A stretch of 29,205 nt of DNA from Planctomycetota bacterium. Lineage in GTDB: Bacteria; Planctomycetota; UBA8108. Below, piece after piece: positions 5,244-28,179 of the stretch. The DNA lies in contig JAKUSY010000005.1 in the NCBI GenBank assembly GCA_022451445.1, positions 1-29,205 of the forward strand, read 5' to 3'. Below the pieces are notes generated by a model. The model ran no database searches, was not told where the DNA came from, and saw only the letters and a list, made by a program, of their open reading frames with translations. The position numbers and the translations under genes were made by a program. Within the stretch, counting starts at the first letter, position 1. The number at the start of each line of letters is the position of its first letter.

Positions 5244-5273
5244 CGCACCAGGTCGGCCGATGGTACTCGCTAC

Positions 5274-8108: not shown

Positions 8109-8121
8109 TTTCGAGAGCCTT

Positions 8122-10771: not shown

Positions 10772-11617
10772 ATGATTGTCGGCTGCGGAGAATGGGGGTT
10801 TCGAAATGTTCCCATGCAGGAGCATTTCAGGATTTCCGAGAGGTTCGGGTTCAGGTTCCTGGAGTTCGGAATCGGGGGAGGACAGCCCGGAAGACTTCCC
10901 GAGGAGCCGGGCGAGGCGGATGTCGCGGAGTTCAGGGCGCTCGGCGAACGCTACGGCATCAACACGCCCTTCTGCTGCCTCGAGAATGACTTCACCCTCG
11001 CCGCCGAGGGTGAGCACGAAGCGATGGTGGCGAAGGTGCTCGGGCAGCTTCGTTCCGCCCGGAGCTGTGGAGCGACCCACGTAAGGCTGTTCGCGGGTTT
11101 CACCCCGGCCGCTGATATGACTGAAGAGATCTGGAGCAGGCTATTCAGCGCCTTTGAGGGCTGCGAGAGACTCTGCGCCGAGCTCGGCATGGAGATCTCC
11201 ATCGAGACGCATGGAGCCCTCGAGTTCAGGGACGATGGCAGCGCGGTTCATATCAACAGCGTCACCACCGACCGCGAGTGTCTCGGCCGTCTTCTGGAGA
11301 ATCTTCCGTCCCGGGTGGGCTTCAATTACGATCCAGGGAACATCAAGGCGGTCTCACCCGGCGATCACAGGTACTGTCTCGATCTTCTCAACGACCGCAT
11401 CAACTACTGCCATCTCAAGGACTGGCATTCGAGGGGGGGTGGCTGGGTCGCCTGCGCCATCGGGGACGACGATCTCGATTACGGTCCCGTCTTCGAGCGG
11501 ATGAAGTTCGACGGCGTGTACCTGATCGAGTACGAGCCCCTCGAGGACCCCGAGGATGGGATCCAGAGGAGCCTGGATTATCTCTCCAGGGTCGCGCCGG
11601 GCTTTACCCGCTGCTGA
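10772..11617 (+). CDS. Sugar phosphate isomerase/epimerase (xylose-isomerase-like TIM barrel)
   Basis: Motifs FLEFG, VRLFAG, ISIETHG, NYDPGN, CHLKD, IGDDDLDY and LIEYE. AGGAG RBS lies 8 nt before ATG 10772, so the start is moved from the ORF-track 10679. Confidence 0.9.
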   Translation: MIVGCGEWGFRNVPMQEHFRISERFGFRFLEFGIGGGQPGRLPEEPGEADVAEFRALGERYGINTPFCCLENDFTLAAEGEHEAMVAKVLGQLRSARSCGATHVRLFAGFTPAADMTEEIWSRLFSAFEGCERLCAELGMEISIETHGALEFRDDGSAVHINSVTTDRECLGRLLENLPSRVGFNYDPGNIKAVSPGDHRYCLDLLNDRINYCHLKDWHSRGGGWVACAIGDDDLDYGPVFERMKFDGVYLIEYEPLEDPEDGIQRSLDYLSRVAPGFTRC

Positions 11618-11625
11618 GAAGCCAC

Positions 11626-12378
11626 TCAGGCTCCGCTCTCCTCGTCGCTCTCCGCGGGGGGCTCGCCGTCTTCGTCCGGCGGCTCTGCGGCGGATCGGGC
11701 GGCTTCTTTCGCCTCTTTTTTCTCCTCCAGGACGCGCTTGATCTCCGTGCGGTAGCGCCGGGTTTTGTAGATTGCGTAGATAATGATCAGGGCGACCAGG
11801 CTCCCGATGACCAGCAGCACGATGGGCTTGTATTCTTCAAAGAGACCCATGGCTTTTTCGAGGGCATCCTTTGGAGTCTTGCCGGGCGCCAGCTTCTGGG
11901 CAGCCCACATACCGAAGAAAATCGAGATCGGGCAGGAGATGAGGGCTCCGATCAGGTCGAAAAAAATGAACTTTACCCAGCGCATTCCGTGCTGCCCGGC
12001 GTAGCCGTAGACGCCGATGCGAACCCCGGCAAGAAAACGCGCGAAGAAGACAGCCTTGTTGCCGTGTTTGGCGAAGTGCCGGTGGACCTTCTTATTGTTG
12101 ATCGCCCGGATGAACCAGCTGTCGGGAAAGCTCTGCCCCAGCTTCCTGCCGGTGAAAAAGATGATCGAATCGCCGATGAGGATGCCTGTTACGCAGACCG
12201 CCGAGGCGATCCAGAAATCGGCGAGGTGGAAGCCGACCACCACCCCGCTGCCGATCAGCGTGACCTCTTCGGGAATCGGAAGGCCGATCCCGCAGAGAAA
12301 GAGTATGCCGAACATGGCCCAGTACTGGTATTGCTCGAGCCAGGCGAGGATCTCTGTCGGTTCCAGTAAGGCAAACAT
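11626..12378 (-). CDS. DedA/VTT family membrane protein
   Basis: LCGIGLPIPEEVTLIGSG, GDSIIFFTGR, AVFFARFLAGVR and hydrophobic helices. Confidence 0.92.
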   Translation of the reverse strand: MFALLEPTEILAWLEQYQYWAMFGILFLCGIGLPIPEEVTLIGSGVVVGFHLADFWIASAVCVTGILIGDSIIFFTGRKLGQSFPDSWFIRAINNKKVHRHFAKHGNKAVFFARFLAGVRIGVYGYAGQHGMRWVKFIFFDLIGALISCPISIFFGMWAAQKLAPGKTPKDALEKAMGLFEEYKPIVLLVIGSLVALIIIYAIYKTRRYRTEIKRVLEEKKEAKEAARSAAEPPDEDGEPPAESDEESGA

Positions 12379-12489
12379 GTTTCTTCTCTTCCACCGTGCT
12401 TTTCCGTGTGGATGGGCAAGATAACCCAGGCCCGGGAAAAAACCAACCCCGGGCGGGAATCCGGCTCGAGGCCGGTCCGCGCGGGTTCT

Positions 12490-13011
12490 TCAGAACAGGG
12501 TTCCCACCGAGGGGCTCAGGTCGAGATCCGCCGGCACGCCCGGGAAGTGGTCGCGGATGAAATCGCCCTGGACATCGCGGGTCTTCCGGGAGAGCTGTCC
12601 CTGCAGGTCTTCACTGCATTTTTCGCACATGATGATCATGGGCAGCAGGAGGGACAGCTCCCGGCAGGCTCCGATGACCGTGAAATTCTCGAAGAGGGCC
12701 CTGGGAAAGCCGCAGAAGTGACAGTGGTCGGGCCCCTCGGTGGGCTTGAAGTTGCAGAGCATGAAGCCCTTCATGGCCTCGAGCGATTCCCGGGACATCT
12801 CCTTGGAGAGATCTTCGCCGCAGGCCTGGCAGATGGCCGTTTCGAAGATCACCTCCTTGTCCCGGTAGACCTTCTGGATCTCGTAGAGTCCCAGGTGTTC
12901 AAGATCCTTCTCGCAGATGGTGCAGTTTTTGAACGGGCCCTCCTCGGAGAACGAGTGCAGCTCTTCAGGCACCTCCGCGGCGCAGTCTTCGTTTGATGGA
13001 TCAGGTAACAC
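12490..13011 (-). CDS. Hypothetical protein with four CxxC motifs (probable metal-binding)
   Basis: CTIC, CQAC, CHFC and CEKC. GTG start at 13011 preceded by GGAG at 5 nt. Confidence 0.8.
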   Translation of the reverse strand: MLPDPSNEDCAAEVPEELHSFSEEGPFKNCTICEKDLEHLGLYEIQKVYRDKEVIFETAICQACGEDLSKEMSRESLEAMKGFMLCNFKPTEGPDHCHFCGFPRALFENFTVIGACRELSLLLPMIIMCEKCSEDLQGQLSRKTRDVQGDFIRDHFPGVPADLDLSPSVGTLF

Positions 13012-13117
13012 GGGTACTCCACGGAGCGCAACTGCGCCGGGAACCGTCCGCACTTCGCCAGGGGGCTGAAGTAAGGCGGTTCATCGACGAATTTTGCCCC
13101 GCAGTAATCTGCGGATA

Positions 13118-13199
13118 GTAGAATGCAAGCCGTTTAATTCAGGCCCGGAACGGGGAAATACCGTACTTTACCAGGCCCTCGGGAATTGTAGAATCAAGC
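13118..13199 (+). promoter_or_regulatory. Tandem -10-like elements GTAGAAT(G)CAAGC upstream of the TPR/FG-GAP gene
   Basis: GTAGAATGCAAGC at 13118-13130 and GTAGAATCAAGC at 13188-13199. The second has TTTACC 16 nt upstream. Confidence 0.4.
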
Positions 13200-13237
13200 G
13201 CCAGTGTCGGCAAAGTCTTTCTCCGAGGTAAAGATAA

Positions 13238-16200
13238 TTGAGCATCTCCGATCGTTTGTTTGAAGAGCCCGCGCGCTCGGCGCCCGCGCCCGGCAGGATG
13301 GCGGGAGCGCTGCTCCTGCTCCTCATCGCGGCCGCCGCATGGAGTTGCAGCCCGGGTTCCAGGGTTGGACCTGCCGAGGGTCTTCGCAGGATGGGCAGGG
13401 GGATCGGCCTGCTCGAACAATACGATTATTCAGGCGCCTACAAGATCTTCTCCGGGCTCTGCGAGAGCTTTCCCGCCTGGGAGGCGGCCTGGACCAACCG
13501 CGGCATAGCCGGTCTCAATCTCCAGGATGAGAGTAAGTGCGTGCCCAATATGAAGAAGGCGCTGGAGCTGAATCCCCGCAGCTCTCATGCGCTGCTGGTC
13601 CTCGGTATTCAGTACGAACACCTGCAGAGGACCGACGAGGCACTCGAGCTCTTCAGGAAGGTGGTGGAGCTCGATCCTGATGACCCGCATGGGCACTACT
13701 ATGTCGGCACCATCCTTGCTGACCGCGATGACAAGGAAGGGGCGGTGCGCCATCTTCGCCGCGCGCTCCAGCTGCAGCCATCCTTCGCCTCGGCCTGGTA
13801 CCGCATGGCGAACCTTCATCGCAGAGAAGAGAAAGACCTGCGGATCGGCATGCTCAACGAGTTCAAGCGTCTCAAGAAGGCCGGTGCCGGAATCCTGGTG
13901 GGACATAAGTACGGCGAAGGGGGAAGGTACAGCCTCGCGGTCAGGGACTCCCTGCCCCCGGGCTACACCGCCTCGCCCCCGGCGGAGGCCCCGGCGGCGT
14001 CCATCGGCGCCGGGCGCGAGATCAGCGGCGTTCCGCGGACCGTCCCGGCCCCGTCCGGAAGCCAGGCGGCGGGAATGGCTGTGGGTGATCTCGATGGAGA
14101 TGGATCGCTCGAGCTGATCCTCTGCGGGAGCGCGGCCGCCGATGGCGCCCAGGGCGCTCTCTCGATCTTCAATTACTCGGCGGCGGGAGATTACAGCCTC
14201 GCCCGCAGGTTGGCCTTCGATGCGAATCTCTGCTGTCTCGCCGACCTCGATGGAGACACCGATCTCGACCTGGTCGTTGCCGCCCCCGGCTCTCTCAGGT
14301 TCCTGCTCAACGATGGCAAGGGCGGCCTCGAGGAGGCCAGCGTCAAGGTGAAGTCCGGGCGCGACGGGGGCTTCCCCCTGCGCCTCTACGCCCTCGATGT
14401 CGACAGCGATTGGGATCTCGACATTATCTGCCTGCGCCAGTGGAAGGAAGCCGATGGCAAGGTCACCTCCCGGGTACAGGTGCTCAACAACGATCGCGAT
14501 GATCCCGCCGGCCTTGGCGGCTTCAGCGACATCGGCGCCGACTGCGGGCTGGAAGAATTCGATTTCGCCGTGGTGGAGCTCGCCGTGGTGGATCTCGATG
14601 GCGATGTCGATCTCGACCTCGCCGTTTTCGACGAACGCGGCGGCGCCAGGTTTTTCTCGAACCATCGCGCCTGGAAGTTCGCGGAGGTCAAGCAGGCCGC
14701 GGGACTCTCTGCCGCGGGAATCGTGAGCGTTACCTCGGGGGATCTCGACGGAGACGGAGATGAGGACCTTGTCGCCTTCTGCGGCGACAGCCTCCGCCTC
14801 CTGCGCAACGATGGCCTGCTGCGTTTTACCCTGGACAGGGATTTCTCCAGCCGCTACGGAGCGCTTGGCGGGACCGGCGGGACGCTCTTTGATTTCGATG
14901 GAGACCTGGCCCTCGAGCTCCTGGTCATCGACGCGAAACCTGCCGGTGATGCGAAAGGAGCCGTCCTGGTCTCTCCCGGTAAAGAGACCAGGCGATTCGA
15001 ACTTGGACGCAAGACCCGGGGGGGCGCGGTGAGCGTCCTGGCCGGCTGCATGGGAATCGACGGGGGAGTCGAGCTGGTCGTGGCGGACACGGCCGGGGCG
15101 ACCACCGCTCACGCTCTCGAGATCCCCGGAACGTGGATCGGTCTCGAGCTCACCGGCCCTCTTCGCGAGGAGGTGAAGCCCGACGCCGAGCGGTCCAATC
15201 CCGCCGCCCTGGGGGCGAGCGTCGAGGTGCGTTCCGGAACCCGGGTGGCGAGGCGGCAGCTCAACGGCTCTACCGGCGGCACGGCGCGCGCGGCGGCGCG
15301 TTTTTTCTGTGGTCTCGGCGGCGCTCCGGCCGCTGACACGGTTCGTATTCTCTGGCCCGATGGTATTCTCCAGAGCGAGCTCGGGCTGGTGTCCGGAAAG
15401 ATTCACGAGATCAAGGAGAAGGAGCGCAAGCCGACCTCCTGCCCGGTGCTTTTCAGCTGGAATGGAGACTCCTTTGAATTTGTCGCTGATTTCCTCGGGG
15501 TCGGGGGACTCGGGTATTTCGAGGCCCCCGGGCGCTACAGCGCCCCGGATCCGACCGAGCTGCTTTGGATCCCGAGACTCGAGGCGCGCGAGAACGCAGA
15601 GGCTGGAGCTTCCTACGAGCTGCGGGTGCTCGAGCCCCTCGAGGAGTGCACCTACCTCGACAGCGCCGCGCTCGTGGCAGTCGATCATCCCGAGGGTACG
15701 ACGGTCCTGCCCAACGAGATGTTCGCCATTCTCGGCCCGGCTCCGGGCTACGGGCTCCTCTCCTTTGAGGAGAAGCTCCACCCGCTGAAGGCGATTGACC
15801 AGGATGGAGCGGATATGACCTCGCGCGTACAGAAGCTCGACGCGGCCTACGCTCCTGAGCTCAAGCCCGACAGGAGGTTCATGGGAGTGCTCGAGAAGCC
15901 GCAGGCCGTCGAGCTCGAGTTTCCCGCCTCGCTCGATGAGCTCATTCGCTCCGATGCTCCCGGCCGGCCGGTTCTTTTTCTCTACGGCTATATCGAGTAC
16001 GGCTATTCGACGACGAACTTCTCCGCCTCGCAGGCGGGCTTCGTTCCCATGGCCCCGAGCTTCCGCGTCGAGCGCGATGGATAGTGGGAGACCCTCCGCG
16101 AAGAGTGGGGATTCCCGGCGGGCTATCCGCGCTGGATGAGCGTCGATCTCGCCGACCTCCTGCGCCCGGGAGACCGCCGGCTGAAGATCGACACCAACCT

Positions 16201-16777
16201 CGAGATCGCCTGGGACGAGGTCTTCATCGCCCGGGCCCGGGATGTCGATCTCAGGGGGGCCGGGGATGAGAAGGTCACGGTGCGCCAGCTGAAGGCCGAC
16301 CGGGCCCACCTGCACTACCGCGGCTTCCCGATCGATCCCGCTCCCGGGGAGGAGGTCGAGGGCTTTCTCTACAAGGAGTTCGCCGAGTGGACTCATTACA
16401 AGGTCATGCCGGGCAGCTATACCCGTTTCGGCGATGTCCGCCCCCTGCTCGAAGAGGATGACGGGCGATTCGTGATCTTCGGGCCCGGCGATGAGATTGA
16501 ATTCTCCTTCAGGGCCGATCGTCTGGGCGAACTGGCCCCCGGTGGACGCCGGACCTTCTTCTGGAAGAGCGGTGGCTATTGCAAGGACATGGACTTCTAT
16601 ACCGGGCATGGTGATGGTGTGGCGCCCCTTCCCTTCGCCGGCATGAAGTCCTATCCCTACGCCGAGGGCGAGAGCTACCCGGCTGATCCGGCCCTCGAGC
16701 GCTACGCGAGGGAGTGGAACACCCGGAAGATCGAGGGTGACCTGCGAACCCCGATCTCAGCGGTCGTCGGAGATTGA
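13238..16777 (+). CDS. TPR + FG-GAP + ASPIC/UnbV (CRTAC1-like) probable lipoprotein, 1179 aa if read through the in-frame TAG at 16082-16084
   Basis: Lipobox-like AAWSC, TPR helices, FG-GAP repeats, SNPAALGASVEV..VRILWPDG (ASPIC/UnbV) and TSCPVLFSWNG. ORFs 13238-16084 and 16136-16777 share a frame and join as RVERDG*WETLREEWGFPAGYPRWMSVDL. The start could alternatively be ATG 13298. Confidence 0.85.
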
Positions 16778-16781
16778 TCCC

Positions 16782-17135
16782 GTGCGCTTGTTGCCGCTCC
16801 TGCCGCTGCTCTGCCTGCTCTGTTCCTGCGGCGCGGGGTCGACCGGGGTGTCGTATACATCGGTAAGCGGGATCTTCAAAAGCAACTGCGTCTCCTGCCA
16901 CGGGGCGAAGGAGCCGGAGTCGGAGCTTCGGCTCGACAGCCTTGGGGGAATCCTTACCGGCGGCAAGAGCGGGCCGGCCGTCGTCCCGGGCGATGCCGAT
17001 TCGAGCATCCTCATCAGCGCGGTGGAAGACAGCGGCCTGGTCACGAGGATGCCGCCCGAAGACGATGCCCCGGCTCTCGATGCCGCCTCGCTCGGTCTCC
17101 TGCGCCGATGGGTCCAGGCTGGAGCGAAACCGTAG
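16782..17135 (+). CDS. Planctomycete-type cytochrome c domain lipoprotein
   Basis: CVSCHG heme motif, LRLDS, GGKSGPAVVPGDADSS, RMPP and WVQAGA. Lipobox LCSC. GGAG lies 9 nt before GTG 16782. Confidence 0.88.
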   Translation: MRLLPLLPLLCLLCSCGAGSTGVSYTSVSGIFKSNCVSCHGAKEPESELRLDSLGGILTGGKSGPAVVPGDADSSILISAVEDSGLVTRMPPEDDAPALDAASLGLLRRWVQAGAKP

Positions 17136-17180
17136 TGCCGCCGGGCGCTTCGGCCGGGGATGACCCGGGGGCATTTTGTT
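17136..17180 (+). terminator. Candidate intrinsic terminator
   Basis: TGCC-G-CCGGG...CCCGG-G-GGCA imperfect hairpin immediately after the stop, followed by TTTTGTT. Confidence 0.4.
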
Positions 17181-17271
17181 CCGTTGTCACAGGACCTGCC
17201 CTGCTAAGCTCTAGGCCAGCTCCCGGCTGGACAGTTCCCGTATTCCCGCACCTCCCGGCAATGAACAGGTC

Positions 17272-18516
17272 ATGATGAACCAGGCCAGCCTGGAAATAGA
17301 GGTAGAGAAGACCGCCGAGGGGCGGCGGGCTCTCATCAGGTTTCGCCCGGACCTGAAGCGGCATGGCGGCCAGAGGGCCGACGTAAAGCTGGTTCTCTTC
17401 TGCAAGGTCGACCATTCCAATCCCATCAATAAAAAGGTCGAGCTGCTGAGCGAGAGCTTCAAGGTCAGCAAACCGCTGCACACCCTGCGCTACAAATGCC
17501 CACGGAGGCTCTTCACCTACGAGGGGAACTGGATCCGGCTTTATGCGCGAGTCTCGATTCTCATCGGAGATGACCATCTATCGAAGAAGTTCGAGGCGCC
17601 CCTGGAGCTCGGCAACATCCACCTGAGCGAAGATATTGACGAGACGATCAATCCGCCCGACGAACAGGTTCTCGTGAAAAACCTATTCATGATTCCAGCC
17701 GAGCGCAAGTCCGTGCTTCTGGCGCTCTGGGGGGGCTGTCTGGTTTTTCTTTTCCTGACGGAACGTTTTATCAGGAGCTCGCTCCTCACTATGAGCCGCG
17801 AGGTATTCGAGCTCGGGCTCATCTTCCTGCTTGGTCCCGCGTGCGGCCTCTTGTATTTCGCCTGGAAAAAAACCAAGGCTTACTGGAAAGCGCCGGACCT
17901 TGGGCTGCATTTCAATATCCCGGAGGGACTGTCGAGGGGCTCCCGGAGCAAGGCGAAGATCAATCGCCAGTCACGCCTCCTGGTTTCCGACTGGATATCG
18001 GGTAAGGCGGCGATGGATCTCGATGGCGTGAGGCTGAGGGTGGTGGCGGGGAACATCGAGAGGGGCCCGTGCCACGAGCTGGAGGGCAGCATGACTTCAG
18101 ACGCCAAGCTGGTGAAAAAGGACGTTTCCGTCGTTACTCGGGCGATGGTTCTCTACGACAAGACGATCGAGCGTCTTCCGGCCGGCACGGAGTTCGCGGA
18201 GTATTTCCGGGACCCGCTGGATTTCGAGCCGGTTTTCACGGATCTCTACCCACCCGACCTGGTGGCCACCAGGGGGTTCGGGGGCCGCCTCTCCCTGAGC
18301 TCAACGCACGGCCTGGGCTATTACCTCGAGTTCCAGCTGCTACACCCCGACGTGGCTGTCCTCTAGTACGAGGTGGAGTCGAGCTATTTCGATCCGACCG
18401 CTTTTTTCAGCGAGCCGGCTTCCGCCCCTCCCGCCTCGCCTCTGGGGGAGAGCGGGAGCTCCGGGGGGGAGGAGACCGGGGCGGATTCGCCGCCTCCGCC
18501 CCCTCCAGGCGGCTAG
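17272..18516 (+). CDS. Hypothetical membrane protein (2 TM), 414 aa if read through the TAG at 18364-18366, otherwise 364 aa ending at 18366
   Basis: Long ORF with two hydrophobic helices. After the TAG the frame continues YEVESSYFDPTAFFSEPAS...PPPPPPGG (49 codons) to a second TAG at 18514. Confidence 0.7.
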
Positions 18517-18605
18517 GAAGCTGTCGCGGCGGGGAGTACTTTGCGGCGGGCTCCCCGCGTGCGAAAATGAGCTCTCATTCGAATCCTGATTCGCTCAACC
18601 GAAAA

Positions 18606-19871
18606 ATGAAACCACCAGGCCGGTACTATCGATGCGCGTTCGCTGCTTGCGGTCTCCTGCTGGCCTGCCTGCCGGCCGCGGCCGATGAATGGACGCGCTT
18701 TCGCGGCCCCAACGGTTCCGGCCTGAGCGATGCGAAGACCGTTCCGGCGCAGTGGAAGGAGAGCGACTTCAACTGGAAGATCGACCTGCCCGGCAAGGGG
18801 AATTCCTCCCCGGTCGTCTGGGACGAGCTGGTCTTCGTGACGGCGGCCGACAATGACGCCGGAACGAGGACCCTCCTGGCGATCAACACCGCGGACGGCA
18901 AGACGCGGTGGAAGAAGAATTTTCCCTACGCGACCTACCGCAAGCATCGAAACAACTCCTACGCATCCAATACCCCGGCGACAGACGCGGAGCGGGTCTA
19001 CGTTCTCTGGCAGTCGAAGAAGGAATCCCGGCTGGTAGCGATCGATCACGAGGGCAAGGAGAGCTGGCGCTACGAGCTCGGCCCCTACCTGCACGGCCAG
19101 GGCGGCGGCACCTCCCCGATCGTATTTGAGGACCTGGTGGTCATCTCCAACGATCACAAGAAGGGCAGCTTCCTGCTGGCGGTCGACCGCGCCACGGGCA
19201 GGGAGCGCTGGAAGCTCCCGCGCGCGGGTAAGCGGGCCTGCTATTCAACCCCCTGTGTCTTCAGCGCGCCGGGCCGTCCGACGGAGATTGTCTTCGTGCA
19301 CTGCTTCGAGGGAATCGTCGGGGTCGATCCGAAGCTCGGCAGGCAGAACTGGATGATCGATGTCTTCGGCACCTTTCCCCAGAGAGCCGTGGGTTCGCCC
19401 GTGGTCTGGAAGGACCTGGTGGTTGCCAACTCCGGGGCTCTCAATGGTGGCAAGAACGCTGTCGTGGTCCGTCCCTCGACCAGCGGAAAAAAGCACGGCG
19501 TGAAGGAGGTCTACAGGATCTCGCGTTCGGCGCCGCACGTTCCAAGCCCGCTGGTCTTCGACGGCAGGCTCTTTCTGTGGAGCGACCTGGGGGTCGTCAC
19601 CTGCGCCAGGGTGGAGACAGGGTAGGTGATCTGGCAGAAGAGGGCCGGCGGCGGCGGTAATTTTCACGGCTCGCCGGTCTGTGTCGATGGGCGCCTCTTC
19701 TGCGCCGACGACAAGGGCACTGTCGTCGTTCTGTCGGCCTCTGAGAAGTTCGAGGTGCTGGGAAAAAACGAGCTTGCCGACACCTGCCGCTCGACCCCCG
19801 CGGTGAGCGGCGGACGAATGTACGTGCGCACCGAGAGCCGGCTGTTCTCGGTGGGAGGGAAGAAAGAGTAG
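18606..19871 (+). CDS. PQQ-binding-like beta-propeller protein (BamB-like, planctomycete type), 421 aa if read through the TAG at 19623-19625
   Basis: Signal peptide followed by DEWTRFRGPNGSG, repeated SSPVV/SPIVF/STP motifs and the family C-terminus STPAVSGGRMYVRTESRLFSVG. The junction VETG*VIWQKR lies inside a propeller blade. Confidence 0.88.
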
Positions 19872-19876
19872 CCCCT

Positions 19877-20845
19877 TCAGCTGGCGAGCACCCGGGCGAG
19901 CTCCAGCAGGTGCGCGGGCAGCTCCCGGGTTTCCTTCCAGGCCAGCTCCAGGTCCACCAGCGTCGTCTCGCCGTTTCGCTTCGCCACCAGCTTCGATGTC
20001 TCGCCCGCCACGAGCGCGTCCACCGCCGCCTTACCGAAGAGACCTCCCTGCACTCTGTCGAGGGCGCTCGGGGTCCCGCCGCGCTGGATATAGCCGAGCA
20101 CCGCGACACGCAACTCGTAGTCCGATTGGGCGGTGATCTTATCCGCGATCTCATAGGCGTTGCCCGCGTCGTCACCTTCTGCGACGACGACGATGCTGGA
20201 GACCTTGCCGGCCTCACGGCAGCGCTCGAGCCCGGCGCAGAGGGCGGCGATGTCGGTCGGCATCTCAGGCACCAACACCCCCTCGGCTCCGCAGGCCAGC
20301 GCGACCTCCAGGGCCAGGAAGCCGCGATCGCGGCCCATGACCTCGACCAGGAAGAGGCGCTCGTGGGAGGTCGCCGTGTCGCGAATCTTGTCGATCGCCT
20401 CGACCGCGGTATTGACGGCCGTGTCAAATCCGAGGGCGTAGTCGGTTCCCCCTACGTCATTGTCGATCGTTTTCGGTATGCCGATGAGCGGCAGGCTGGC
20501 CTGCCGCGAAAGCTCACAGGCTCCCCGGAGCGAGCCGTTGCCTCCTATCACGATCAGGCCATCGATCCCGCGTTCCGCGAGGTTGGCGATGGCCTGCTCG
20601 CGCGCAGCCGCCTCCCTGAATTCCGGGCAGCGGCTCGAGCGTAGAACGGTACCTCCGAGATTGACGATCCCGGCTACGCTGCGCGCATCCATTGGCTCCA
20701 TGTCGTTATCGATGAGACCGCGCCAGCCCCTGTGGACTCCGATGGCCTCGATCCCTCCGGCGAGGGCTGTTCGCACGACGGAGCGAATGCAGGGATTCAG
20801 CCCCGGGCAGTCTCCTCCGCTGGTAAGCAATGCGAGTCGGTTCAA
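19877..20845 (-). CDS. pfkA: 6-phosphofructokinase, probably ATP-dependent
   Basis: LTSGGDCPGLN, GGTVLRSSR, VIGGNGS, PKTIDND, VEVMGR and LGYIQRGG. TTG start. Confidence 0.95.
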   Translation of the reverse strand: MNRLALLTSGGDCPGLNPCIRSVVRTALAGGIEAIGVHRGWRGLIDNDMEPMDARSVAGIVNLGGTVLRSSRCPEFREAAAREQAIANLAERGIDGLIVIGGNGSLRGACELSRQASLPLIGIPKTIDNDVGGTDYALGFDTAVNTAVEAIDKIRDTATSHERLFLVEVMGRDRGFLALEVALACGAEGVLVPEMPTDIAALCAGLERCREAGKVSSIVVVAEGDDAGNAYEIADKITAQSDYELRVAVLGYIQRGGTPSALDRVQGGLFGKAAVDALVAGETSKLVAKRNGETTLVDLELAWKETRELPAHLLELARVLAS

Positions 20846-20857
20846 GGCTACAGGCGC

Positions 20858-22738
20858 TCAGCAGCCGAGGTTGTCTTCGGTCAGATCCCTTCCGGCCCTG
20901 GGGAATGGCGCTCGGGGCCTGTCCCCTCCGGAAAACAGGAAGCGCAGGATCAGGATTCCATCGGAGATGTCGATGCTGCCATCATCGTTGGCATCCGCCG
21001 CATCTTCACAGGAGGGTACCCTGCCGCCTCGAAAGAGATAATCCAGCAGGAAGACCGCGTCTGTCAACTGGATGGTTCCACTTTGATCGGTATCGCCCCG
21101 CAGGAACAGCGGTGCGGGACGGGCGATGACGGTCCCGCTGAGGGCCAGGGGCTCGACCACGCGGCCGTCGCCGCTTGTGGTGAATTCCAGGTTGACCGGG
21201 GGAGAGCCGATGCCGCCGGCCAGGTCCAGCTCGACGCGATCGCCGTCATCGAGAGACTGTGAGAGCGACACCAGGAGCCTCGCTATGACAGTCTCTTCTC
21301 CGGCCGGAATGCTGGGCGAGGCGCCGGTGAAGGACATCACGATTCCGTAGGTGGCGATGCCCGAGTCGTTGTCGATATTGGCGGCGGCGAAGCTCGCCTC
21401 GCTCGTGAGGAGCTTCTCGTTGCTGATGCCGTCGACGGTGAGCTCGCTGTTGTCGTAAGAGAGGGCGAAGGACACTCCCGAGAGCGCTGAATCCGAGGTG
21501 CAGAGAACGTCGACGGGGATGCGGGAGCCTCCGGCGGGTCCCTCGCTCCCGGCGATGCGCAGGATCTTCGAGTGGTAGGTGAAGGCGTCCTGGAGGCGGG
21601 CTTCCGCCCCGTCCTGCGTCACGGTTACGTCAAACGTTCCGCCGCCGCGGCGGCGCGGGAGAGTGCCCCGGATCATCCCGGAGTCGATCCGCGCGGCATC
21701 CTCCACGCGGACACCGCCGATTCGCAGCTCGGCGCCGGAGGTGAAATTCTCGCCGATGACGGTCACCTGGATTCCGCCGGTGACCGGGCCCTCTCCGGGT
21801 TCGATGGACGCGAGCCGCGGAGCCGGGGACAGGTAGCGATAGCCGTCCTCCAGTACGGCCTCTCCGAGCTCTCCGGTGATACGGATGTCCGCCGGCCCCG
21901 CGCTGCCGGAGATCATGCGGTGCACCCGGATCAGGCAGCAGTCTTCGATGGTCCAGGCGGAGGCGGACAGCCGTCGGCCGCCGACATAGAGGGTCGAGTT
22001 CTGGTCCCAGGTGAAGTTCCTGCCCCGGATGAGAACCTCGTTTCTTCCGGCGGAAGGTCCGGAGTCCGGCTCCACCTCGATAATCCGGGTGGCGGGATTG
22101 GCACCGCCGCGGGTTTCGTAGAGGAACTCGGCGCCGGCGATGTCGTCCTCGTGCAGGGTCCTCATATGCTGGCCACGGTTCAGGGCGCCGGCGTACATGG
22201 TGGCGGTGCGGACATCCGAGTGGTCGAGACCGAGCGCATGCCCGAATTCATGGGTGGCGATCCCCCTCAGGTCCATGGTGCCGCTGGGCGGGTCCTGGGG
22301 GCCGTTCCAATTATTGGCGGTGCCGAGGCTCCTGGCGAAGAAGACCATGTCAAAGCTCACGATCCGCGAGCCGACGCCGCTGACGAGCGTAATGGCGAGG
22401 GCGTCTCCACCATCCTGGTTGGCCCAGGAGACGGCGTTGATGTTGTCATCCTCATCGAGCCCGCTGGCGGTGGTCGTTCCAAGGTAGACGAAACGCCGGG
22501 CTGCCGCCGATTGCTCGCGCCAGCAGGCGGCGGAACAGGTGAGGAGCTCGAGCTGCTGCGCGCGGGTGCCGGTGCGGCTCTCATCCGGGAAGTTCGGATT
22601 GATCCTGTAGTTGATCCGGCCGGTGCGCCAGCTCATGCCCAGGGTATCAAAGCACGACGCCTGCGGCGTAGAGAGGGCTCCCGCCAGGAACAGGACGAGA
22701 AGCGCCAGGCAGGGGGTTGTTCGCCAGCGACCGGTCAT
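20858..22738 (-). CDS. Exported matrixin (M10 metzincin) with 2x IPT/TIG, cohesin and type I dockerin domains
   Basis: HEFGHALGLDH with Met-turn ATMY. IPT repeats VEPDSGPSAG and IEPGEGPVTG. Cohesin-like SALSGVSFALSYD..YGIV. Dockerin FLRGDTDQSG..DANDDGSIDISD. ATG 22738 overlaps the upstream TGA. Confidence 0.9.
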   Translation of the reverse strand: MTGRWRTTPCLALLVLFLAGALSTPQASCFDTLGMSWRTGRINYRINPNFPDESRTGTRAQQLELLTCSAACWREQSAAARRFVYLGTTTASGLDEDDNINAVSWANQDGGDALAITLVSGVGSRIVSFDMVFFARSLGTANNWNGPQDPPSGTMDLRGIATHEFGHALGLDHSDVRTATMYAGALNRGQHMRTLHEDDIAGAEFLYETRGGANPATRIIEVEPDSGPSAGRNEVLIRGRNFTWDQNSTLYVGGRRLSASAWTIEDCCLIRVHRMISGSAGPADIRITGELGEAVLEDGYRYLSPAPRLASIEPGEGPVTGGIQVTVIGENFTSGAELRIGGVRVEDAARIDSGMIRGTLPRRRGGGTFDVTVTQDGAEARLQDAFTYHSKILRIAGSEGPAGGSRIPVDVLCTSDSALSGVSFALSYDNSELTVDGISNEKLLTSEASFAAANIDNDSGIATYGIVMSFTGASPSIPAGEETVIARLLVSLSQSLDDGDRVELDLAGGIGSPPVNLEFTTSGDGRVVEPLALSGTVIARPAPLFLRGDTDQSGTIQLTDAVFLLDYLFRGGRVPSCEDAADANDDGSIDISDGILILRFLFSGGDRPRAPFPRAGRDLTEDNLGC

Positions 22739-23352
22739 TTCCCGCTCCTGTCTTCGCCGCCGGTTTTTTTTCTTCCCTGGAGGATTTTCCGCACCTGCAG
22801 CCGAAGCGTTCGAAGCTCCATGGTTTTTCGAACGGGCAGGTGCTTCGCGCCCATGACGAGAACCTTCCCGGTATTGCCGGTGGCCGGCGGACTCGATTCC
22901 AGCCGGTATTTTCCCTGGAACCAGCCCGTGCTCCAGAGCGCTCCGTTGAGCTCCCTGGCGAAGACCAGCACCTTCTCTCCCCTCAGGAAGCGCGGTGATT
23001 CGGCGCATTTCTGCCAGCGCTCGCCGATCCGGCCGCCGAGATACTGGATGGTGATCTCGGTGATGCCGCCCGGGGTCTTCGCTCCGGTCCGGCTTCCGCG
23101 GATGAGCCCCGGACGTTTTCCCGGCGAGTCTCGCCAGGTCTCCGAGACCTTGATGCGAACATCGGTTATCATCGCCCTGCCGAGCCCGAGGAAGTCGTCC
23201 CAGCGGCTCTGTATCGCGACCACCTCACCACAGAAGATGTGACTCGAGCGAAGGGTCAGCTTCTCGAGGTCGAACTCGACCACGGCCGCCCGGCCCTCAG
23301 GGCAGGCTGTTGCGCAGAGTACCGGCAGAAAGAGAAGGAGGTATTGTTTCAT
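22735..23352 (-). CDS. Exported hypothetical protein resembling the pro-/partner domain found with matrixins
   Basis: Signal peptide from ATG 23352 and pattern LEKLTLRSSHIFCGEVV...YLGGRIG...PRFLRGEKVLVF...GWFQGKYRL. ATGA-coupled to the matrixin gene. Confidence 0.8.
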   Translation of the reverse strand: MKQYLLLFLPVLCATACPEGRAAVVEFDLEKLTLRSSHIFCGEVVAIQSRWDDFLGLGRAMITDVRIKVSETWRDSPGKRPGLIRGSRTGAKTPGGITEITIQYLGGRIGERWQKCAESPRFLRGEKVLVFARELNGALWSTGWFQGKYRLESSPPATGNTGKVLVMGAKHLPVRKTMELRTLRLQVRKILQGRKKTGGEDRSGK

Positions 23353-23441
23353 GGCTTCGCAGGCGGCCTCGAGGGTCTGTCGGGGCAACGTCCGGTTTGG
23401 TTTCAACTCCCCGGAACCCGAAGATGCTTTTGCCGTGATCC

Positions 23442-23448
23442 TATGATA
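23442..23448. promoter_or_regulatory. Overlapping divergent -10-like hexamers (TATGAT on +, TATCAT on -)
   Basis: TATGATA in the middle of the 172-nt spacer between the divergent genes starting at 23352 (-) and 23525 (+). Confidence 0.3.
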
Positions 23449-23524
23449 CTTTGCGCGGTCCCCGACGGCAGCAAAAACCGGTGGGGGGCCCCGTTGGGAG
23501 CGTGAACTCCCCCTGAGAGTTTCC

Positions 23525-24880
23525 ATGAGCGAAATGACCGACAATAGCCGCCTCGCCGAGGTTGAGAGCATCATCGAAAAGTATCCCGATGTGCCGCCTG
23601 AGGCCGTCTTCAAGGAAGACCTGCTCAGGCTGGGGGTCAGCTTTTCCGAGGATGCCCTCAGGCTCTGTGGTGGGTTCAAGCCCTAGTCTTATTTCTTCTT
23701 CAGCTTGGACCTGCAGCCCTTCAAGGAGCTCGAGCAGGGGGAAAACCTGAGGGTCCCGGAGGAGCTCTCTCTCGTGGGCGGCCCCCGGAATTTCAGGCGC
23801 ACTATCGTGAGTGTCCGGATTTATCCCGACTCACCCTACCGCGTCGATATCGTCGAGGGGAAGCTGGCACTGCTAGTGGAGGGGGAACTGGTCTGTGATA
23901 TCGAGCTGCAGGATATTCCGGAGTATTACCGCCGAGATCTGCGAAGCGGCAAGACCATCACCGAGATCGCTCCGACCATCGAGTGGGGCTCCCTTGTCTA
24001 CCTGACGGTCTACCGTAAATGCCAGTATTTCGGCTTCAAGGAGGAGTGCCAGTTCTGCGACATCAACGAGAATGTTCGCCAGCAGAAGGAGGCCGGCCGG
24101 CCCTACGATACGGTGAAGGCGGTCGAGGAGGTGGTGGAGGCCCTCGAGATTATCGATGAGACGGATGTCGAGAAACGAACCCGGGCCTACACCATCACAG
24201 GGGGGAGCATCACCCGCCATCTGAGAGGGCAGGACGAGGCCACCTTCTACGAGGCCTATGCCCGGGCGATCAATTCTCGTTTTCCGGGACGCTGGATTTC
24301 CAAGATGGTGGTCCAGGCGCTCCCGCTCGATGATGTCCGGCGGTTTCGGGATGCGGGAGTCCAGATCTACCATCCAAACTACGAGGTCTGGGATAGGCGC
24401 CTCTTTTCGATCATCTGTCCGGGCAAGGAAGACTACGTGGGCCGCGACGAATGGATGAAGCGCATCGTGGCTGCGGCGGAGGTCTTCGGCCCATCCCAGG
24501 TTATTCCGAATTTCGTCGCCGGAGTCGAGATGGCGGCTCCTCACGGTTTTTCAAGGATCGAGGACGCGCTCGCCTCCACCGGTGAGGGACTCGACTACTT
24601 CATGTCGAGGGGAATTACCCCCCGCTTCACGGTCTGGTGCCCCGAGCCTCTGAGCGTCCTCGGCAGGGACCAGGGGGCGGCTCCGCTGGAATACCACGTC
24701 GGTCTGCTGCGGCTCTGGAGAGAGACCCTGCTGCGCTACAACCTTCCGGCGCCGCCGGGTTACGGGCTGCCGGGCGTCGGCAACGCGGTCTTCTCGGTAA
24801 GCTCCTTCATGGATGCCCTACCGGGCGATCTCGAGGTCGCCCGGCTTCCCGGCGAGTCCGAGGTCGCGGCGAACAGCTGA
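23525..24880 (+). CDS. Radical SAM protein with CX8CX2C motif, 451 aa if read through the TAG at 23684-23686
   Basis: RKCQYFGFKEECQFCDIN, YTITGGS, YHPNYEVWD and PNFVAGVE. An upstream 53-codon in-frame segment (MSEMTDN...KYPDVPPEAVFKEDLLRLG...FKP*SYFFFSLD) is absent from the ORF track. Confidence 0.88.
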
Positions 24881-24895
24881 GAGCCCCGCTGCCTG

Positions 24896-25930
24896 TTATT
24901 TCTCCGAGTCGATTCCGAACTCGCCCTTGCGTGCTCTCAGGGCGCTGTGGATGTGCGCGGCATTGTTCTGGAAATTGGCATAGCTGATGATGAAGTCCGG
25001 GCCGTGAACGATGAAGGAATGGCCCTCGCCGGCTCCGAGCTTCCCCCTCCAGGCTAGCTGGATATCGGCCACCTTCTTGGTGAGCGAGATCTCCATCTCC
25101 TTGCGCAGGTCTTTTTCCAGGTTTCCCGTGTGTTCGAGCACCAGCTGGGTGAGCGTCTTTACCTGGACCTCGTTCATGCTGCTGCCTGGAAGCCCCAGGG
25201 GCAGGCGGGCATCGTAGGTTGCCGCCTGGGTGGCTTTGATCTCCTCGGGTTTGCTTTTTCCAAGGGCGGTCTTGAGCTGGGATTCGTCGAGGCTCCGCAT
25301 CAGCTGCCTGGCGAGGTCCTCTACCTTGCCCAGGACCCTGAGTCCTTTCCTGGGGCCGGATTGGACCATGGCGGGATTGGCTCCGTAGAACAGGGGGGTC
25401 GCTGAGAGGACGGACTTCCCCTGGAGGGTGAAGTTGAGGCAGAGGTGGTGGCCTTCAAAGCGCCAGCCCCATTTTTCTTTTGAGCCCGGGGTGCCGAAGA
25501 TGCTCAGGTAGTAGTGCTCCGGGTCACGGCTGAATCTCCTGTTGGGACCCTCGATGGATCTCAGGATTCCCTCGAGGGAGCGGACCTCTTCGACGGTCCT
25601 GGCCCCTTTTTCTCCCAGGGAGACGATGAGGAGGTTCTGGACGAACTTCTTCTGCGCGTCGTTCATCTCGCTGAGGGCAAGTCCCTTTCGCGGCCTGGGG
25701 ATGAAATGCCAGTTGAGGCGCTCCTCGTCCTTGAAGTCGAAGAGGGCCTTCTCGCGCTGGCGTACGGAGAGCTTGGATGCCACCTTTTTTACGGCCGCGG
25801 TGATGGCATCCGCCGTCCTGGCGCTCGCAGCGGCCGCGTCGACGGAGCTCGTTCCATAGTCGAGGGCGGGGTTCAATAGCCAGGCTGCCAGGAGGAGACT
25901 GGCGCTGGAGAAAAAGAAGATCCTGTTCAT
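24896..25930 (-). CDS. DUF3500 domain exported protein
   Basis: NWHFIPRPRKGL, WGWRFEGHHLCLNFT, TPLFYGANP and NNAAHIHS. N-terminal signal-like segment. Confidence 0.88.
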   Translation of the reverse strand: MNRIFFFSSASLLLAAWLLNPALDYGTSSVDAAAASARTADAITAAVKKVASKLSVRQREKALFDFKDEERLNWHFIPRPRKGLALSEMNDAQKKFVQNLLIVSLGEKGARTVEEVRSLEGILRSIEGPNRRFSRDPEHYYLSIFGTPGSKEKWGWRFEGHHLCLNFTLQGKSVLSATPLFYGANPAMVQSGPRKGLRVLGKVEDLARQLMRSLDESQLKTALGKSKPEEIKATQAATYDARLPLGLPGSSMNEVQVKTLTQLVLEHTGNLEKDLRKEMEISLTKKVADIQLAWRGKLGAGEGHSFIVHGPDFIISYANFQNNAAHIHSALRARKGEFGIDSEK

Positions 25931-25984
25931 CTCGATGACCCTTCGTGTTCCGGTTTGTTCGTTCAGAGGCGAAGTGAGGGGAAC

Positions 25985-25990
25985 AGTATA
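25985..25990 (-). promoter_or_regulatory. Candidate -10 box TATACT for the DUF3500 gene
   Basis: Minus strand reads GCTG-TATACT about 55 nt upstream of the ATG. Confidence 0.35.
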
Positions 25991-26029
25991 CAGCCTGGGA
26001 AACCTTTGAGCCAGCGAACTGAGGCGGTC

Positions 26030-26974
26030 TCAGCCGATCCCGTGGCGCTCCAGGATTTCCTCGAGTCTCGCCTTGTTTGAGCTGGCGGTAACGGAGCCCG
26101 TCTGCTGAACGCAGAGGGTCCCCAGTTCACAGCCGAGCTGCGCACACTCGAGAGGATCCAGTCCGTTCATCCTGCCGGCGAGGAAGGCCCCGACAAAGTT
26201 GTCCCCGGCTCCGCAGGTGTCGACCGCCCTTACCTGCGCGGCTGGAATATCTTCAACCCGGCCGTCCCAGGACACGGCCGCGCCGCGGTCTCCCCTCTTG
26301 ATCACCGCGATCTCGACGCCCATGTCGCGCAGGCAGGCAAGCATATCGCCGAGATTGTCACGGCCGGTGACGGCCGCCGCCTCGTGCTCGTTCGGAAAGA
26401 CCATATCGGCAAGTCCCAGGAGGGGGGCGTGGGCCTCGGCGGGATCTTCCAGGCGCCCCGGGGCGTCCTGCGGGACGAAGACATCGAGGCTGAGCTCAGC
26501 GCCGGCTTTCTTGAGCGCTTCGGCCGCCTCCAGGCAGGGGCCGGGCCAGAAAGCTCCGAGCAGTTCCGGCGCCGCCATGTGAAAAACCTTCCAGGAGGTC
26601 TCCAGGGCGGCTGCCGGCATTTCCCAGGCGTCATTGCTGCCGCCGTAGTGGACGAAGCTGCGCTCCCCGTCCTGGTCGTTGAGCACCAGGGTTACCGGGG
26701 CTCCGCAATCCTCCCTGGGAGCGAGCAGGGAGAGGTCGATGCCGTCGGCCTCGAGAGATTGCCGCAGGTGACGGCCGAAGATGTCATCGCCAAGCACGCC
26801 GGCGAGGGCGGTCGAGACGCCGAGCCGGGCCGCGGTGACAGCCGTATTGGCTCCATTTCCCCCGAGCTCGACCCTGGGTCGGGGAATCCTCTCGATTCCC
26901 CCCGCCGGAGGCGGCTCGTGCGGCGGGATGTAGAGATCCGCGCAGCAGTTTCCAATGATGGCCAGCCTTGGCAT
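26030..26974 (-). CDS. PfkB/ribokinase-family carbohydrate kinase
   Basis: LGGNGANTAVTAARLG, GVLGDDIFG, FPNEHE, VIKRGDRGA and AVDTCGAGDNFVGAF. Confidence 0.93.
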   Translation of the reverse strand: MPRLAIIGNCCADLYIPPHEPPPAGGIERIPRPRVELGGNGANTAVTAARLGVSTALAGVLGDDIFGRHLRQSLEADGIDLSLLAPREDCGAPVTLVLNDQDGERSFVHYGGSNDAWEMPAAALETSWKVFHMAAPELLGAFWPGPCLEAAEALKKAGAELSLDVFVPQDAPGRLEDPAEAHAPLLGLADMVFPNEHEAAAVTGRDNLGDMLACLRDMGVEIAVIKRGDRGAAVSWDGRVEDIPAAQVRAVDTCGAGDNFVGAFLAGRMNGLDPLECAQLGCELGTLCVQQTGSVTASSNKARLEEILERHGIG

Positions 26975-28179
26975 CAGCGAACCTTCTTTTCACTCTTCTT
27001 GACGGCGGTGATCACGGCATCCGCGAAGGCCCTGCGAACCTCGGAGATCTTCCTGTTCTTGCGGGAAGGATGCACCCTGTTGCTCAGGAGAATCATGTAG
27101 AGATCCCTCTCCGGGTCGATCCAGATCGATGTTCCCGTGAAGCCCGTATGACCGAAGGATTTTTTCCCGGCGAGGTCTCCCGCCGAGCTCTTCTCGGAGG
27201 GGGTATCCCAGCCGAGCGCCCTGCTGGAGCCCTTGGGAGAGTCCTTGCGGCCTGTGAAATTACGGATGATTCCGCTGTTGAGCTTATTGCTCTTTCCCTT
27301 GAGGGCGAGAAGCAGCTCACGGCAGAGCAGCTCCAGGTCAGCGGTGGTTGAGAAGAGTCCCGCATGGCCGGTGACTCCATCTCCTGCCCGCGCGTTTTCG
27401 TCGTGGACCTTCCCGTGGATGTATTTTTTCGTTTCCTCATCGAGCTCCGTGGGGGCGATCTTCTTTCTCAGCGCGGCCGCTGGGTTCCGCAGGGTCTCTC
27501 TCATGCCCAGTGGATCGAAGACCAGTTTTTTCTCGAGTGTCGCGAGAGGCTTTCCGCCGGCCTTCGCGACGACCTCTCCAAGCAGGATGAAGCCGAGGTC
27601 GCTGTAGCGGTAGCTGGTGCCGGGCGCGGTCTCGAGCGGAGTCGCCAGGATGATCTTCAGCAGCGCCTTGTAGCTCGAGCAGCTCTCAAAGAGGGGCCTC
27701 CAGCTCGGCAGGCCCGAGGTGTGAAGGAGGAGTTGCTCAACGGTCACCTTCTCCTTCAGGGCCCGCTCCTTCTTTTTCAGCGAGGCGGGGGCGAAGCCGG
27801 GCAGGTATTTCGAGACCTTGTCTCCAAGCGACAGTTTTTTTCGCTGGATGAGCGCGGCGACCACGGAGGTCGTTCCGACGACCTTGGTCAGGGATGCGAG
27901 ATCGTAGAGGGTCCCGGGTCCGGGGTTCGCCGCGGCCGGAAGGGAGAGCTTTCCGGCGGTCTTGCCATCGAGGGCGAGGGTTCCGAAACCGCCGGTCCAG
28001 TAGCTCCCCGAGCTGGAGCCGACCGCGGCCGCGCAGCCCGGGAAGGCCCCGCTCTTGACAGCGGCGGCGAGGAGCTTGTCCACCCCGGAGAAGTCCGGAT
28101 CCCGCCCCGGGCTCATCGAGCATGCGAGGATTGTCGGCAGCATCGCCCATGCCGAGATGTGACGGTGAGAGAGTTTCAT
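26974..28179 (-). CDS. Beta-lactamase-family serine hydrolase, probable lipoprotein
   Basis: YDLASLTK (SxxK), LLLHTSGL, YSDLGF, VHDENA, GHAGLFST, GHTGFTG and LSNRVHP. Lipobox ILAC. TGATG overlap with the kinase gene. Confidence 0.92.
   Translation of the reverse strand: MKLSHRHISAWAMLPTILACSMSPGRDPDFSGVDKLLAAAVKSGAFPGCAAAVGSSSGSYWTGGFGTLALDGKTAGKLSLPAAANPGPGTLYDLASLTKVVGTTSVVAALIQRKKLSLGDKVSKYLPGFAPASLKKKERALKEKVTVEQLLLHTSGLPSWRPLFESCSSYKALLKIILATPLETAPGTSYRYSDLGFILLGEVVAKAGGKPLATLEKKLVFDPLGMRETLRNPAAALRKKIAPTELDEETKKYIHGKVHDENARAGDGVTGHAGLFSTTADLELLCRELLLALKGKSNKLNSGIIRNFTGRKDSPKGSSRALGWDTPSEKSSAGDLAGKKSFGHTGFTGTSIWIDPERDLYMILLSNRVHPSRKNRKISEVRRAFADAVITAVKKSEKKVR

What the first reader, a model, noticed from the sequence alone, without database searches (positions are those of the whole stretch)
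23525..23704. Hidden N-terminus of the radical SAM gene, cut by a TAG at a Lys I recall as conserved
A 53-codon segment upstream of the TAG (..KYPDVPPEAVFKEDLLRLG..FKP*SYFFFSLD) matches my recollection of this family's N-terminus ('P.EAV.KEDLLR.G...KPKSYFIFSFD'), which makes Lys the expected residue. The downstream TTG at 23705 is preceded by a pyrimidine tract with no Shine-Dalgarno and is an unlikely start. This is the best evidence for the identity of the residue at the TAG.
Basis: partly seen in the sequence, partly recalled or inferred. Interest (0 to 1): 0.7.

Follow-up and report, generated by a model that had tools for sequence, protein, structure and literature searches.

The report
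Private stop codon in intact gene
The TAG does cut a radical SAM gene at a conserved lysine, but only in this draft genome, where it sits in a burst of five odd base changes, so it is most likely a sequencing or assembly error and not a special reading of the code.

Summary
ATG 23525 to TAG 23684-86 (53 codons) is in frame with the 391-codon ORF from TTG 23705. Joined, they give a 451-aa member of NCBIfam NF045502 (variant radical SAM, Cx8Cx2C). The N-terminal segment is present in all homologues. Codon 54 is Lys in 40/40 orthologues (63-98% identity), but in only 19/57 of the wide family.

The implied read-through is not supported. All 14 near-identical public contigs have AAG there. The TAG is one of five window-private complementary transversions within 42 nt (A>T x3, C>G x2). 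All five are non-synonymous, and one of them creates the TTG 'start'. Three other in-frame TAGs in the window (16082, 18364, 19623) are equally private; one replaces Glu.

Private transversions are clustered, uniform in type within a cluster and unselected (14 non-synonymous : 3 synonymous). Private transitions look selected (4:9). Their density predicts about 2 stops per 29 kb, 56-65% of them TAG.

The genome has no tRNA-CUA and no PylS/B/D, uses TAG as a normal terminator, and also has TAA and TGA inside single domains. An earlier follow-up in this scan reached the same verdict for 16082.

Verdict: assembly or base-call artefact (about 0.8), or at most a private dead allele. Low interest.

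The parts
23525..24880 (+). Whole radical SAM gene (451 codons if codon 54 is read through); member of NCBIfam NF045502 variant_rSAM
   Evidence: 177.8 bits, cut-off 125, residues 30-380; 451-aa relatives, 96-98% identity, 100% coverage; colinear with the relatives' genes, no indels
23525..23683 (+). N-terminal 53 codons, left out of the mechanical 391-aa ORF
   Evidence: homologous segment present in all aligned family members; K30 and G37 near-invariant down to 24% identity
23684..23686 (+). In-frame TAG at codon 54; AAG (Lys) in every related contig
   Evidence: 14/14 contigs read A at 23684
23684..23725 (+). Window-private cluster of five complementary transversions: 23684 A>T (K54 stop), 23696 A>T (I58F), 23707 C>G (F61L), 23720 A>T (I66F), 23725 C>G (N67K)
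23705..23707 (+). TTG pseudo-start of the 391-aa ORF, created by the private C>G at 23707 (TTC Phe61 in all relatives)
24020..24058 (+). Cluster-binding motif C166-x8-C175-x2-C178, invariant across the family
   Evidence: invariant in 57 sequences down to 24% identity

Best explanation
The locus is one ordinary 451-codon gene for a variant (Cx8Cx2C) radical SAM enzyme of unknown substrate, with Lys (AAG) at codon 54. In this metagenome-assembled genome (779 contigs, 84% complete) the deposited sequence carries a 42-nt patch of five wrong bases. One turns AAG into TAG and another turns TTC into the TTG that ORF finders take as a start. The patch is one of many private, clustered, single-type transversion patches in this contig. 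They are most simply explained as one low-quality read, or a few, being taken into the consensus at very low coverage. Shown: the changes are private, clustered, uniform in type and unselected; other stop types are also affected; decoding machinery is absent. Inferred: that the cause is technical. My guess, from my own knowledge, is loss of one dye channel in two-colour Illumina chemistry, where A>T and C>G are both 'red lost'. The organism is expected to make the full-length protein with Lys54.
For: (1): 14/14 independent contigs whose flanking proteins are identical to the window's read A,A,C,A,C at 23684/96/707/20/25, where the window reads T,T,G,T,G. All of them call an intact gene of about 451 aa. 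(2): contigs from four studies match the window exactly over long stretches, yet all read AAG at 16082, A at 18364 and GAG at 19623, and lack the neighbouring private transversions. (3): the best run holds only 0.86 of the words, which is what the same strain without the private sites would give. (4): the window has 31 private sites in 8.6 kb; 24 lie within 30 nt of another and 18 are transversions. Low-coverage assemblies such as L017 (cov 3.4) and L012 show the same signature with broken gene calls. (5): private transversions are 14 non-synonymous or nonsense to 3 synonymous, private transitions 4 to 9 (Fisher p=0.008). (6): 11 of 15 adjacent private transversions are of the same class (26 of 100,000 shuffles reach this). 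(7): the codon usage predicts that 56-65% of substitution-made stops are TAG and about 2.1 stops per 29 kb; 4 are observed, P(>=4)=0.16. (8): TAA lies inside HATPase_c and Mala_s_1-like domains, and TGA inside adh_short and Lactamase_B domains, elsewhere in the genome. (9) Cooley & Wright 2024 (PMC11017572) show that internal-stop 'pseudogenes' are often coverage-dependent assembly errors.
Against: The reads from which this genome was assembled could not be examined, so a real allele fixed in the source population is not excluded. The window also carries private synonymous transitions (for example 23869-23995), so it is a distinct strain and some private changes are real. The dye-channel explanation is from memory and fits the 19623-19651 cluster only in part.
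Confidence: 0.8

Rival explanations
1. Real, strain-private loss-of-function allele. A localised multi-base mutational event (for example an error-prone repair patch) hit codons 54-67 in the sampled population, so the gene there is a fresh pseudogene. At best it makes an N-terminally truncated, probably inactive product.
For: The window is a distinct strain with its own synonymous transitions. The source reads are not available. Clustered mutations do occur in nature.
Against: At least seven such patches in 8.6 kb, hitting five genes with 14:3 non-synonymous:synonymous, while transitions in the same genes look selected. Four genes in 29 kb would be knocked out at once. Each patch is uniform in substitution type. 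The variants appear in none of 19 runs or 14 contigs of the same population. Other low-coverage assemblies show the same signature at other places.
Confidence: 0.14
2. The TAG is translated in this organism, as pyrrolysine, by an amber suppressor tRNA or through a reassigned code. The protein is then made full-length with Lys or a Lys-like residue at position 54.
For: The frame is intact on both sides. Three of the four internal TAGs in the window replace AAG. No TGA or TAA interrupts a gene within this window. The genome is only 84% complete, so a tRNA or pyl genes could be unassembled.
Against: No tRNA with a CUA anticodon among 35 found. PylS has no match, PylB scores 46 bits against a cut-off of 348, and PylD 20 against 150. 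TAG ends about 20% of long ORFs and ends window genes at the same place as in relatives, for example the PQQ gene. One internal TAG replaces Glu. Relatives 98-99% identical have sense codons at all four sites. The TAG comes with four other private changes at conserved residues, which recoding does not explain. TAA and TGA also interrupt single domains in this genome.
Confidence: 0.03
3. The gene is naturally split or shortened: a 391-aa enzyme starts at TTG 23705 and the upstream 53 codons are a separate small ORF or a leader.
For: A mechanical ORF call gives exactly this.
Against: The TTG exists only in this assembly and has no ribosome-binding site. All 2,744 homologues found are scored over the full length, and the top 120 cover 92-100% of the query apart from one longer protein at 78%. 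Residues 24-62 contain invariant positions and are folded with confidence in the model (pLDDT 92-98 for residues 11-50).
Confidence: 0.02

Closest known systems
Internal-stop 'pseudogenes' caused by assembly or base-call errors in low-coverage draft genomes and MAGs (Cooley & Wright 2024, PMC11017572)
   Same: A stop codon private to one assembly in a gene that is intact in near-identical genomes. Several such stops occur in the same assembly and all three stop types are affected. The changes are unselected and clustered.
   Different: Here the errors come as short patches of one substitution class (for example A>T plus C>G). The paper does not describe that detail, and I could not trace it to a platform.
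NCBIfam NF045502 variant_rSAM (radical SAM proteins with a non-canonical cysteine spacing)
   Same: Scores 177.8 bits against a cut-off of 125 over residues 30-380. The three cysteines C166/C175/C178 (Cx8Cx2C) are invariant. The model has a radical SAM partial barrel (Foldseek hits to HydE, BioB, LipA, MiaB, MgmA).
   Different: No solved structure matches by sequence and the fold matches are weak (TM 0.34-0.42). The substrate is unknown. The N-terminal domain of about 150 residues, with the KPKSYFIFSFD motif, lies outside the generic core.
Pyrrolysine (amber) decoding, as in methylamine methyltransferase genes of Methanosarcina and some bacteria
   Same: A single in-frame TAG in an otherwise intact gene.
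   Different: No pylS, pylB, pylC, pylD or pylT is present. The TAG is not conserved even in 98-99% identical strains. One of the window's TAGs stands for Glu.
TIGR04043 MSMEG_0568-family radical SAM protein
   Same: Distant sequence similarity over residues 101-334 (E 8e-11).
   Different: 41 bits against a cut-off of 304, so it is not a member.

Membership tests
NF045502 variant_rSAM | Profile score above NCBI's curated cut-off | tested here: met
   177.8 bits against 125, residues 30-380 on profile positions 8-334 of 357
NF045502 variant_rSAM | Three-cysteine cluster motif conserved (variant spacing) | tested here: met
   C166, C175 and C178 invariant in 40 and in 57 sequences; the spacing Cx8Cx2C is read
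NF045502 variant_rSAM | Radical SAM barrel fold | tested here: met
   model pLDDT 88, pTM 0.90; the best PDB matches are all radical SAM enzymes (probability 1.00, TM 0.34-0.42)
Pyrrolysine decoding system | pylS, pylB and pylD in the genome | tested here: not met
   no PylS match; PylB 46 bits against 348; PylD 20 bits against 150. The genome is 84% complete, so absence is not absolute.
Pyrrolysine decoding system | tRNA with CUA anticodon | tested here: not met
   35 tRNAs found, none with CUA; none in the window
Stop-codon reassignment (TAG as sense) | TAG not used as a terminator; TAG at conserved sense positions shared with relatives | tested here: not met
   TAG ends 467 of 2,346 long ORFs and ends the PQQ gene at the same place as in relatives; all four internal TAGs are private to this assembly.
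Assembly or base-call error | Variant absent from independent assemblies of the same population | tested here: met
   0 of 14 contigs, and none of the 4 runs laid (for the other three TAG sites; the rows for 23684 were cut from that table), carry it
Assembly or base-call error | Changes unselected and not specific to one stop codon | tested here: met
   14:3 against 4:9, p=0.008; TAA and TGA inside single domains
Assembly or base-call error | Low depth or low base quality at the site in the source reads | not testable with these tools
   The source reads are not among the indexed runs and only Logan contigs could be laid

The most novel reading that the evidence does not exclude
The source population really carries these patches. 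A localised process that writes runs of one transversion type would have hit many genes. The cell would tolerate four amber-interrupted genes in 29 kb because an amber suppressor lies in the unassembled 16% of the genome, so that Lys54 is restored or replaced at translation.
Probability: 0.03. Interest if true: 0.65.

Novelty: not a real feature. Interest (0 to 1): 0.07.

Why it matters
As biology it matters little: the gene is an ordinary, widely distributed variant radical SAM gene of unknown substrate, and the TAG says nothing about the genetic code. It matters as a caution. In a GC3-rich genome, random base errors make TAG far more often than TGA or TAA (56-65% here), so a handful of error-made stops can look like amber recoding. 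Two checks separate the readings quickly: are the stops private to one assembly, and do they sit in patches of other private, unselected changes? The report also corrects the gene model (start at 23525, 451 codons), which should replace the 391-codon ORF from a start codon that does not exist in nature.

Tried and rejected
(1) Pyrrolysine: searched the genome for PylS, PylB and PylD and for tRNA-CUA; nothing found. (2) Genome-wide TAG recoding: a codon-model scan for stops with coding sequence on both sides showed the TAG share rising from 20% to about 35%. That looked suggestive until one search showed that error-made stops should be 56-65% TAG, and searches found TAA and TGA inside single domains. 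(3) A small inversion or quasi-palindrome template switch to explain the 'complement' substitutions: the five positions are not symmetric about any centre and I saw no improved inverted repeat by eye; not pursued further. (4) DGR-type adenine mutagenesis: rejected because two of the five changes are at C. (5) A second, intact copy of the gene in the genome: none. (6) Fetching the relatives' records through the genome search handles failed, so the left half of the window (1-17,500) was not compared with relatives. (7) The rows for 23684-23725 were cut from the read-laying table (180 rows not shown); the site was settled with contigs fetched by exact-protein look-up instead. (8) Literature search for the MSMEG_0568 radical SAM family: no paper. 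(9) Sequence search of PDB: no hit.

Full report
OBSERVATION. The window reads ATG at 23525, 53 sense codons, TAG at 23684-86, six more codons and then TTG at 23705, all in one frame that stays open to TGA at 24878-80. The 18 bases before the TTG are pyrimidine-rich with no Shine-Dalgarno-like run. Read through, the product has 451 residues (P0001). It scores 177.8 bits (cut-off 125) on NCBIfam NF045502, 'variant_rSAM', and the alignment starts at residue 30, upstream of the TAG. Pfam's generic Radical_SAM model matches only weakly.

IS LYS THE CONSERVED RESIDUE? A word-indexed search found 2,744 homologues. The nearest are 451 aa, 96-98% identical and cover 100% of the query. K54 is also invariant in 40 full-length sequences down to 63% identity. 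An exhaustive search of 1.84 billion representatives gave 778 family members. In 57 full-length ones at 24-59% identity the N-terminal segment is always present (K30 and G37 near-invariant), but column 54 is Lys in only 19, the rest being mostly D, E, R, H or Q. So the upstream segment is the true N-terminus, and Lys is the residue of the orthologous subfamily, not of the whole family. C166, C175 and C178 (Cx8Cx2C) are invariant throughout.

WHAT THE RELATIVES HAVE AT THE DNA LEVEL. Contigs carrying the nearest proteins share the window's gene order: M10 peptidase, a 205-aa protein, the rSAM gene, DUF3500, PfkB, beta-lactamase family. Exact-protein look-ups of the two flanking genes gave further contigs 98-99.9% identical to the window. 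All 14 contigs that cover the site have AAG at codon 54. The window differs from all of them at five positions within 42 nt: 23684 A>T (K54 to stop), 23696 A>T (I58F), 23707 C>G (F61L), 23720 A>T (I66F) and 23725 C>G (N67K). All five are complementary transversions and all are non-synonymous. I58 and F61 are near-invariant in the subfamily. The C>G at 23707 is what creates the TTG 'start' of the 391-aa ORF; every relative has TTC there. Against the closest relative compared at that stage (L005, 98.1% identity), 5 of the 7 complementary transversions in 1,957 nt lie in this patch.

THE SAME HAPPENS ELSEWHERE IN THE WINDOW. Mapping the relatives' gene calls onto the window showed a second in-frame TAG, in a PQQ-type propeller gene (codon 340, 19623), where relatives have GAG for Glu. 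A third lies at 16082, in a TPR/FG-GAP/ASPIC-type gene of about 1,180 codons. I laid Logan contigs of four runs from four studies on 15900-23900. They match the window without a single difference over stretches of several hundred bases. Yet all read A at 16082 (AAG), A at 18364 (AAG) and G at 19623 (GAG). All of them also lack the adjacent private transversions: 18352/59/64, 19628/48/51, 20840/47 and 22497/500/527. Nineteen runs from eight studies hold 75-86% of the sampled words and none holds more. That is what the same strain without the private sites would give.

NATURE OF THE PRIVATE CHANGES. Over 18735-27351 the window has 31 sites where it alone differs from at least six unanimous contigs, or 3.6 per kb. 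Of these, 24 lie within 30 nt of another and 18 are transversions. Most other assemblies have under 1.7 per kb. The exceptions with mostly transversions (L006, L012, and L017 with stated coverage 3.4) include two with broken gene calls (PfkB split or shortened in L012 and L017). The signature therefore belongs to low-coverage assemblies, not to this organism. Private transversions in coding sequence are 14 non-synonymous or nonsense against 3 synonymous. Private transitions are 4 against 9 (Fisher p=0.008). The transitions look like ordinary selected strain variation and the transversions like unselected noise. Adjacent private transversions share one substitution class in 11 of 15 pairs, which only 26 of 100,000 label shuffles reach, so each patch looks like a single event.

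From my own knowledge, untested: in Illumina two-colour chemistry (A in both dyes, C red, T green, G dark) every transversion is a change in one channel. A>T together with C>G is exactly 'red lost', and A>C together with T>G is 'green lost'. A single read with a failing channel, taken into a consensus at very low depth, would produce such patches. The 19623-19651 patch fits only in part.

DO THE NUMBERS FIT? With this genome's codon usage (AAG 3.3%, GAG 5.0%, against AAA 1.1% and GAA 1.9%), 56-65% of substitution-made stops are TAG, and 3.8% of coding transversions make a stop. At 2.1 private transversions per kb this predicts about 2.1 stops in 29 kb. Four are seen (P>=4 = 0.16), and four of four being TAG has a chance of roughly 0.1-0.18. 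No special role for TAG is needed.

IS TAG DECODED IN THIS GENOME? The assembly (3.9 Mb, 779 contigs, 84% complete, 61.6% GC) has 35 tRNA genes, none with a CUA anticodon, and one tRNA-Sec. PylS has no match, PylB reaches 46 bits (cut-off 348) and PylD 20 bits (cut-off 150). TAG ends 467 of 2,346 long open frames and ends several window genes, the PQQ gene at the same codon as in its relatives. A scan for stops with coding sequence on both sides gave candidates of all three kinds. Pfam scans of the best ones gave these results:
- TAA lies inside a HATPase_c domain (L027) and a Mala_s_1-like domain (L024).
- TGA lies inside an adh_short domain (L034) and a Lactamase_B domain (L037).
- A further TGA, at the first Cys of a thioredoxin-fold motif (FWGVG-TGA-GPC, L032), is probably a real selenocysteine.
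Interrupted genes in this assembly are therefore not specific to TAG.

THE GENE ITSELF. An AlphaFold model from 40 homologues is confident (pLDDT 88, pTM 0.90). It has an N-terminal helical part (residues 9-48), a beta-rich part (80-127) and then an alpha/beta barrel. Foldseek matches the barrel only to radical SAM enzymes (MgmA, HydE, BioB, LipA, MiaB, NifB; TM 0.34-0.42). No solved structure matches by sequence. The gene stands alone between a divergent and a convergent neighbour, so context gives no substrate. A product starting at residue 61 would lack the conserved, confidently folded residues 11-50 and the KPKSYFIFSFD motif.

VERDICT. The wider reading, that the TAG is decoded and that this site tells us as what, is not supported. 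The best explanation is a base-call or assembly error patch in a low-coverage MAG (0.8). The next is a real but private dead allele (0.14). Amber decoding is about 0.03. Cooley & Wright 2024 (PMC11017572) document that internal-stop 'pseudogenes' are often such artefacts. A follow-up in this scan reached the same conclusion for the TAG at 16082; I reached mine from my own tests. Only the source reads can close the remaining gap.

Noticed in passing
window 16082-16084, 18364-18366, 19623-19625: Three more in-frame TAGs, in a TPR/FG-GAP/ASPIC-type gene of about 1,180 codons, a membrane hypothetical and a PQQ-type propeller gene. Public contigs of the same strain read AAG, AAG and GAG there. The last two sit in private transversion patches (18352/59/64 and 19623/28/41/48/51).
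   Followed up: yes
L032 nt 781-783 (G000:C257, about 9949-9951): In-frame TGA at the first Cys position of a thioredoxin-fold motif (FWGVG-TGA-GPC) inside a Redoxin/AhpC-TSA domain. The genome has one tRNA-Sec, so this is probably a genuine selenoprotein rather than an error.
   Followed up: partly
L024, L027, L034, L037 (G000 contigs C765, C406, C151, C79): TAA inside a Mala_s_1-like domain and a HATPase_c domain; TGA inside an adh_short domain and a Lactamase_B domain. Interrupted genes in this MAG are not limited to TAG.
   Followed up: partly
window 23869-23995: A tract of 11 window-private changes, mostly synonymous transitions, unlike the transversion patches. It looks like real strain variation or a short recombination tract.
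   Followed up: no
L017 and L012 (public contigs of the same population): Other low-coverage assemblies (L017 states cov 3.36) show their own private, clustered transversions and split or shortened PfkB and M10 gene calls. The artefact class is not peculiar to this MAG.
   Followed up: partly
window 24020-24058 and alignment A3: The family's cluster motif is Cx8Cx2C (C166/C175/C178), invariant down to 24% identity. Column 54 separates a Lys-bearing subfamily (..KPKSYF..) from a distant branch with W-A-x-P-[DEQH]. No member appears to be characterised.
   Followed up: partly
window 3583-3588 (minus strand): The gene 3586-5229 ends in TAG and the next gene's ATG follows directly in the same frame (TAG-ATG). 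I took them for two adjacent genes and did not check further.
   Followed up: no
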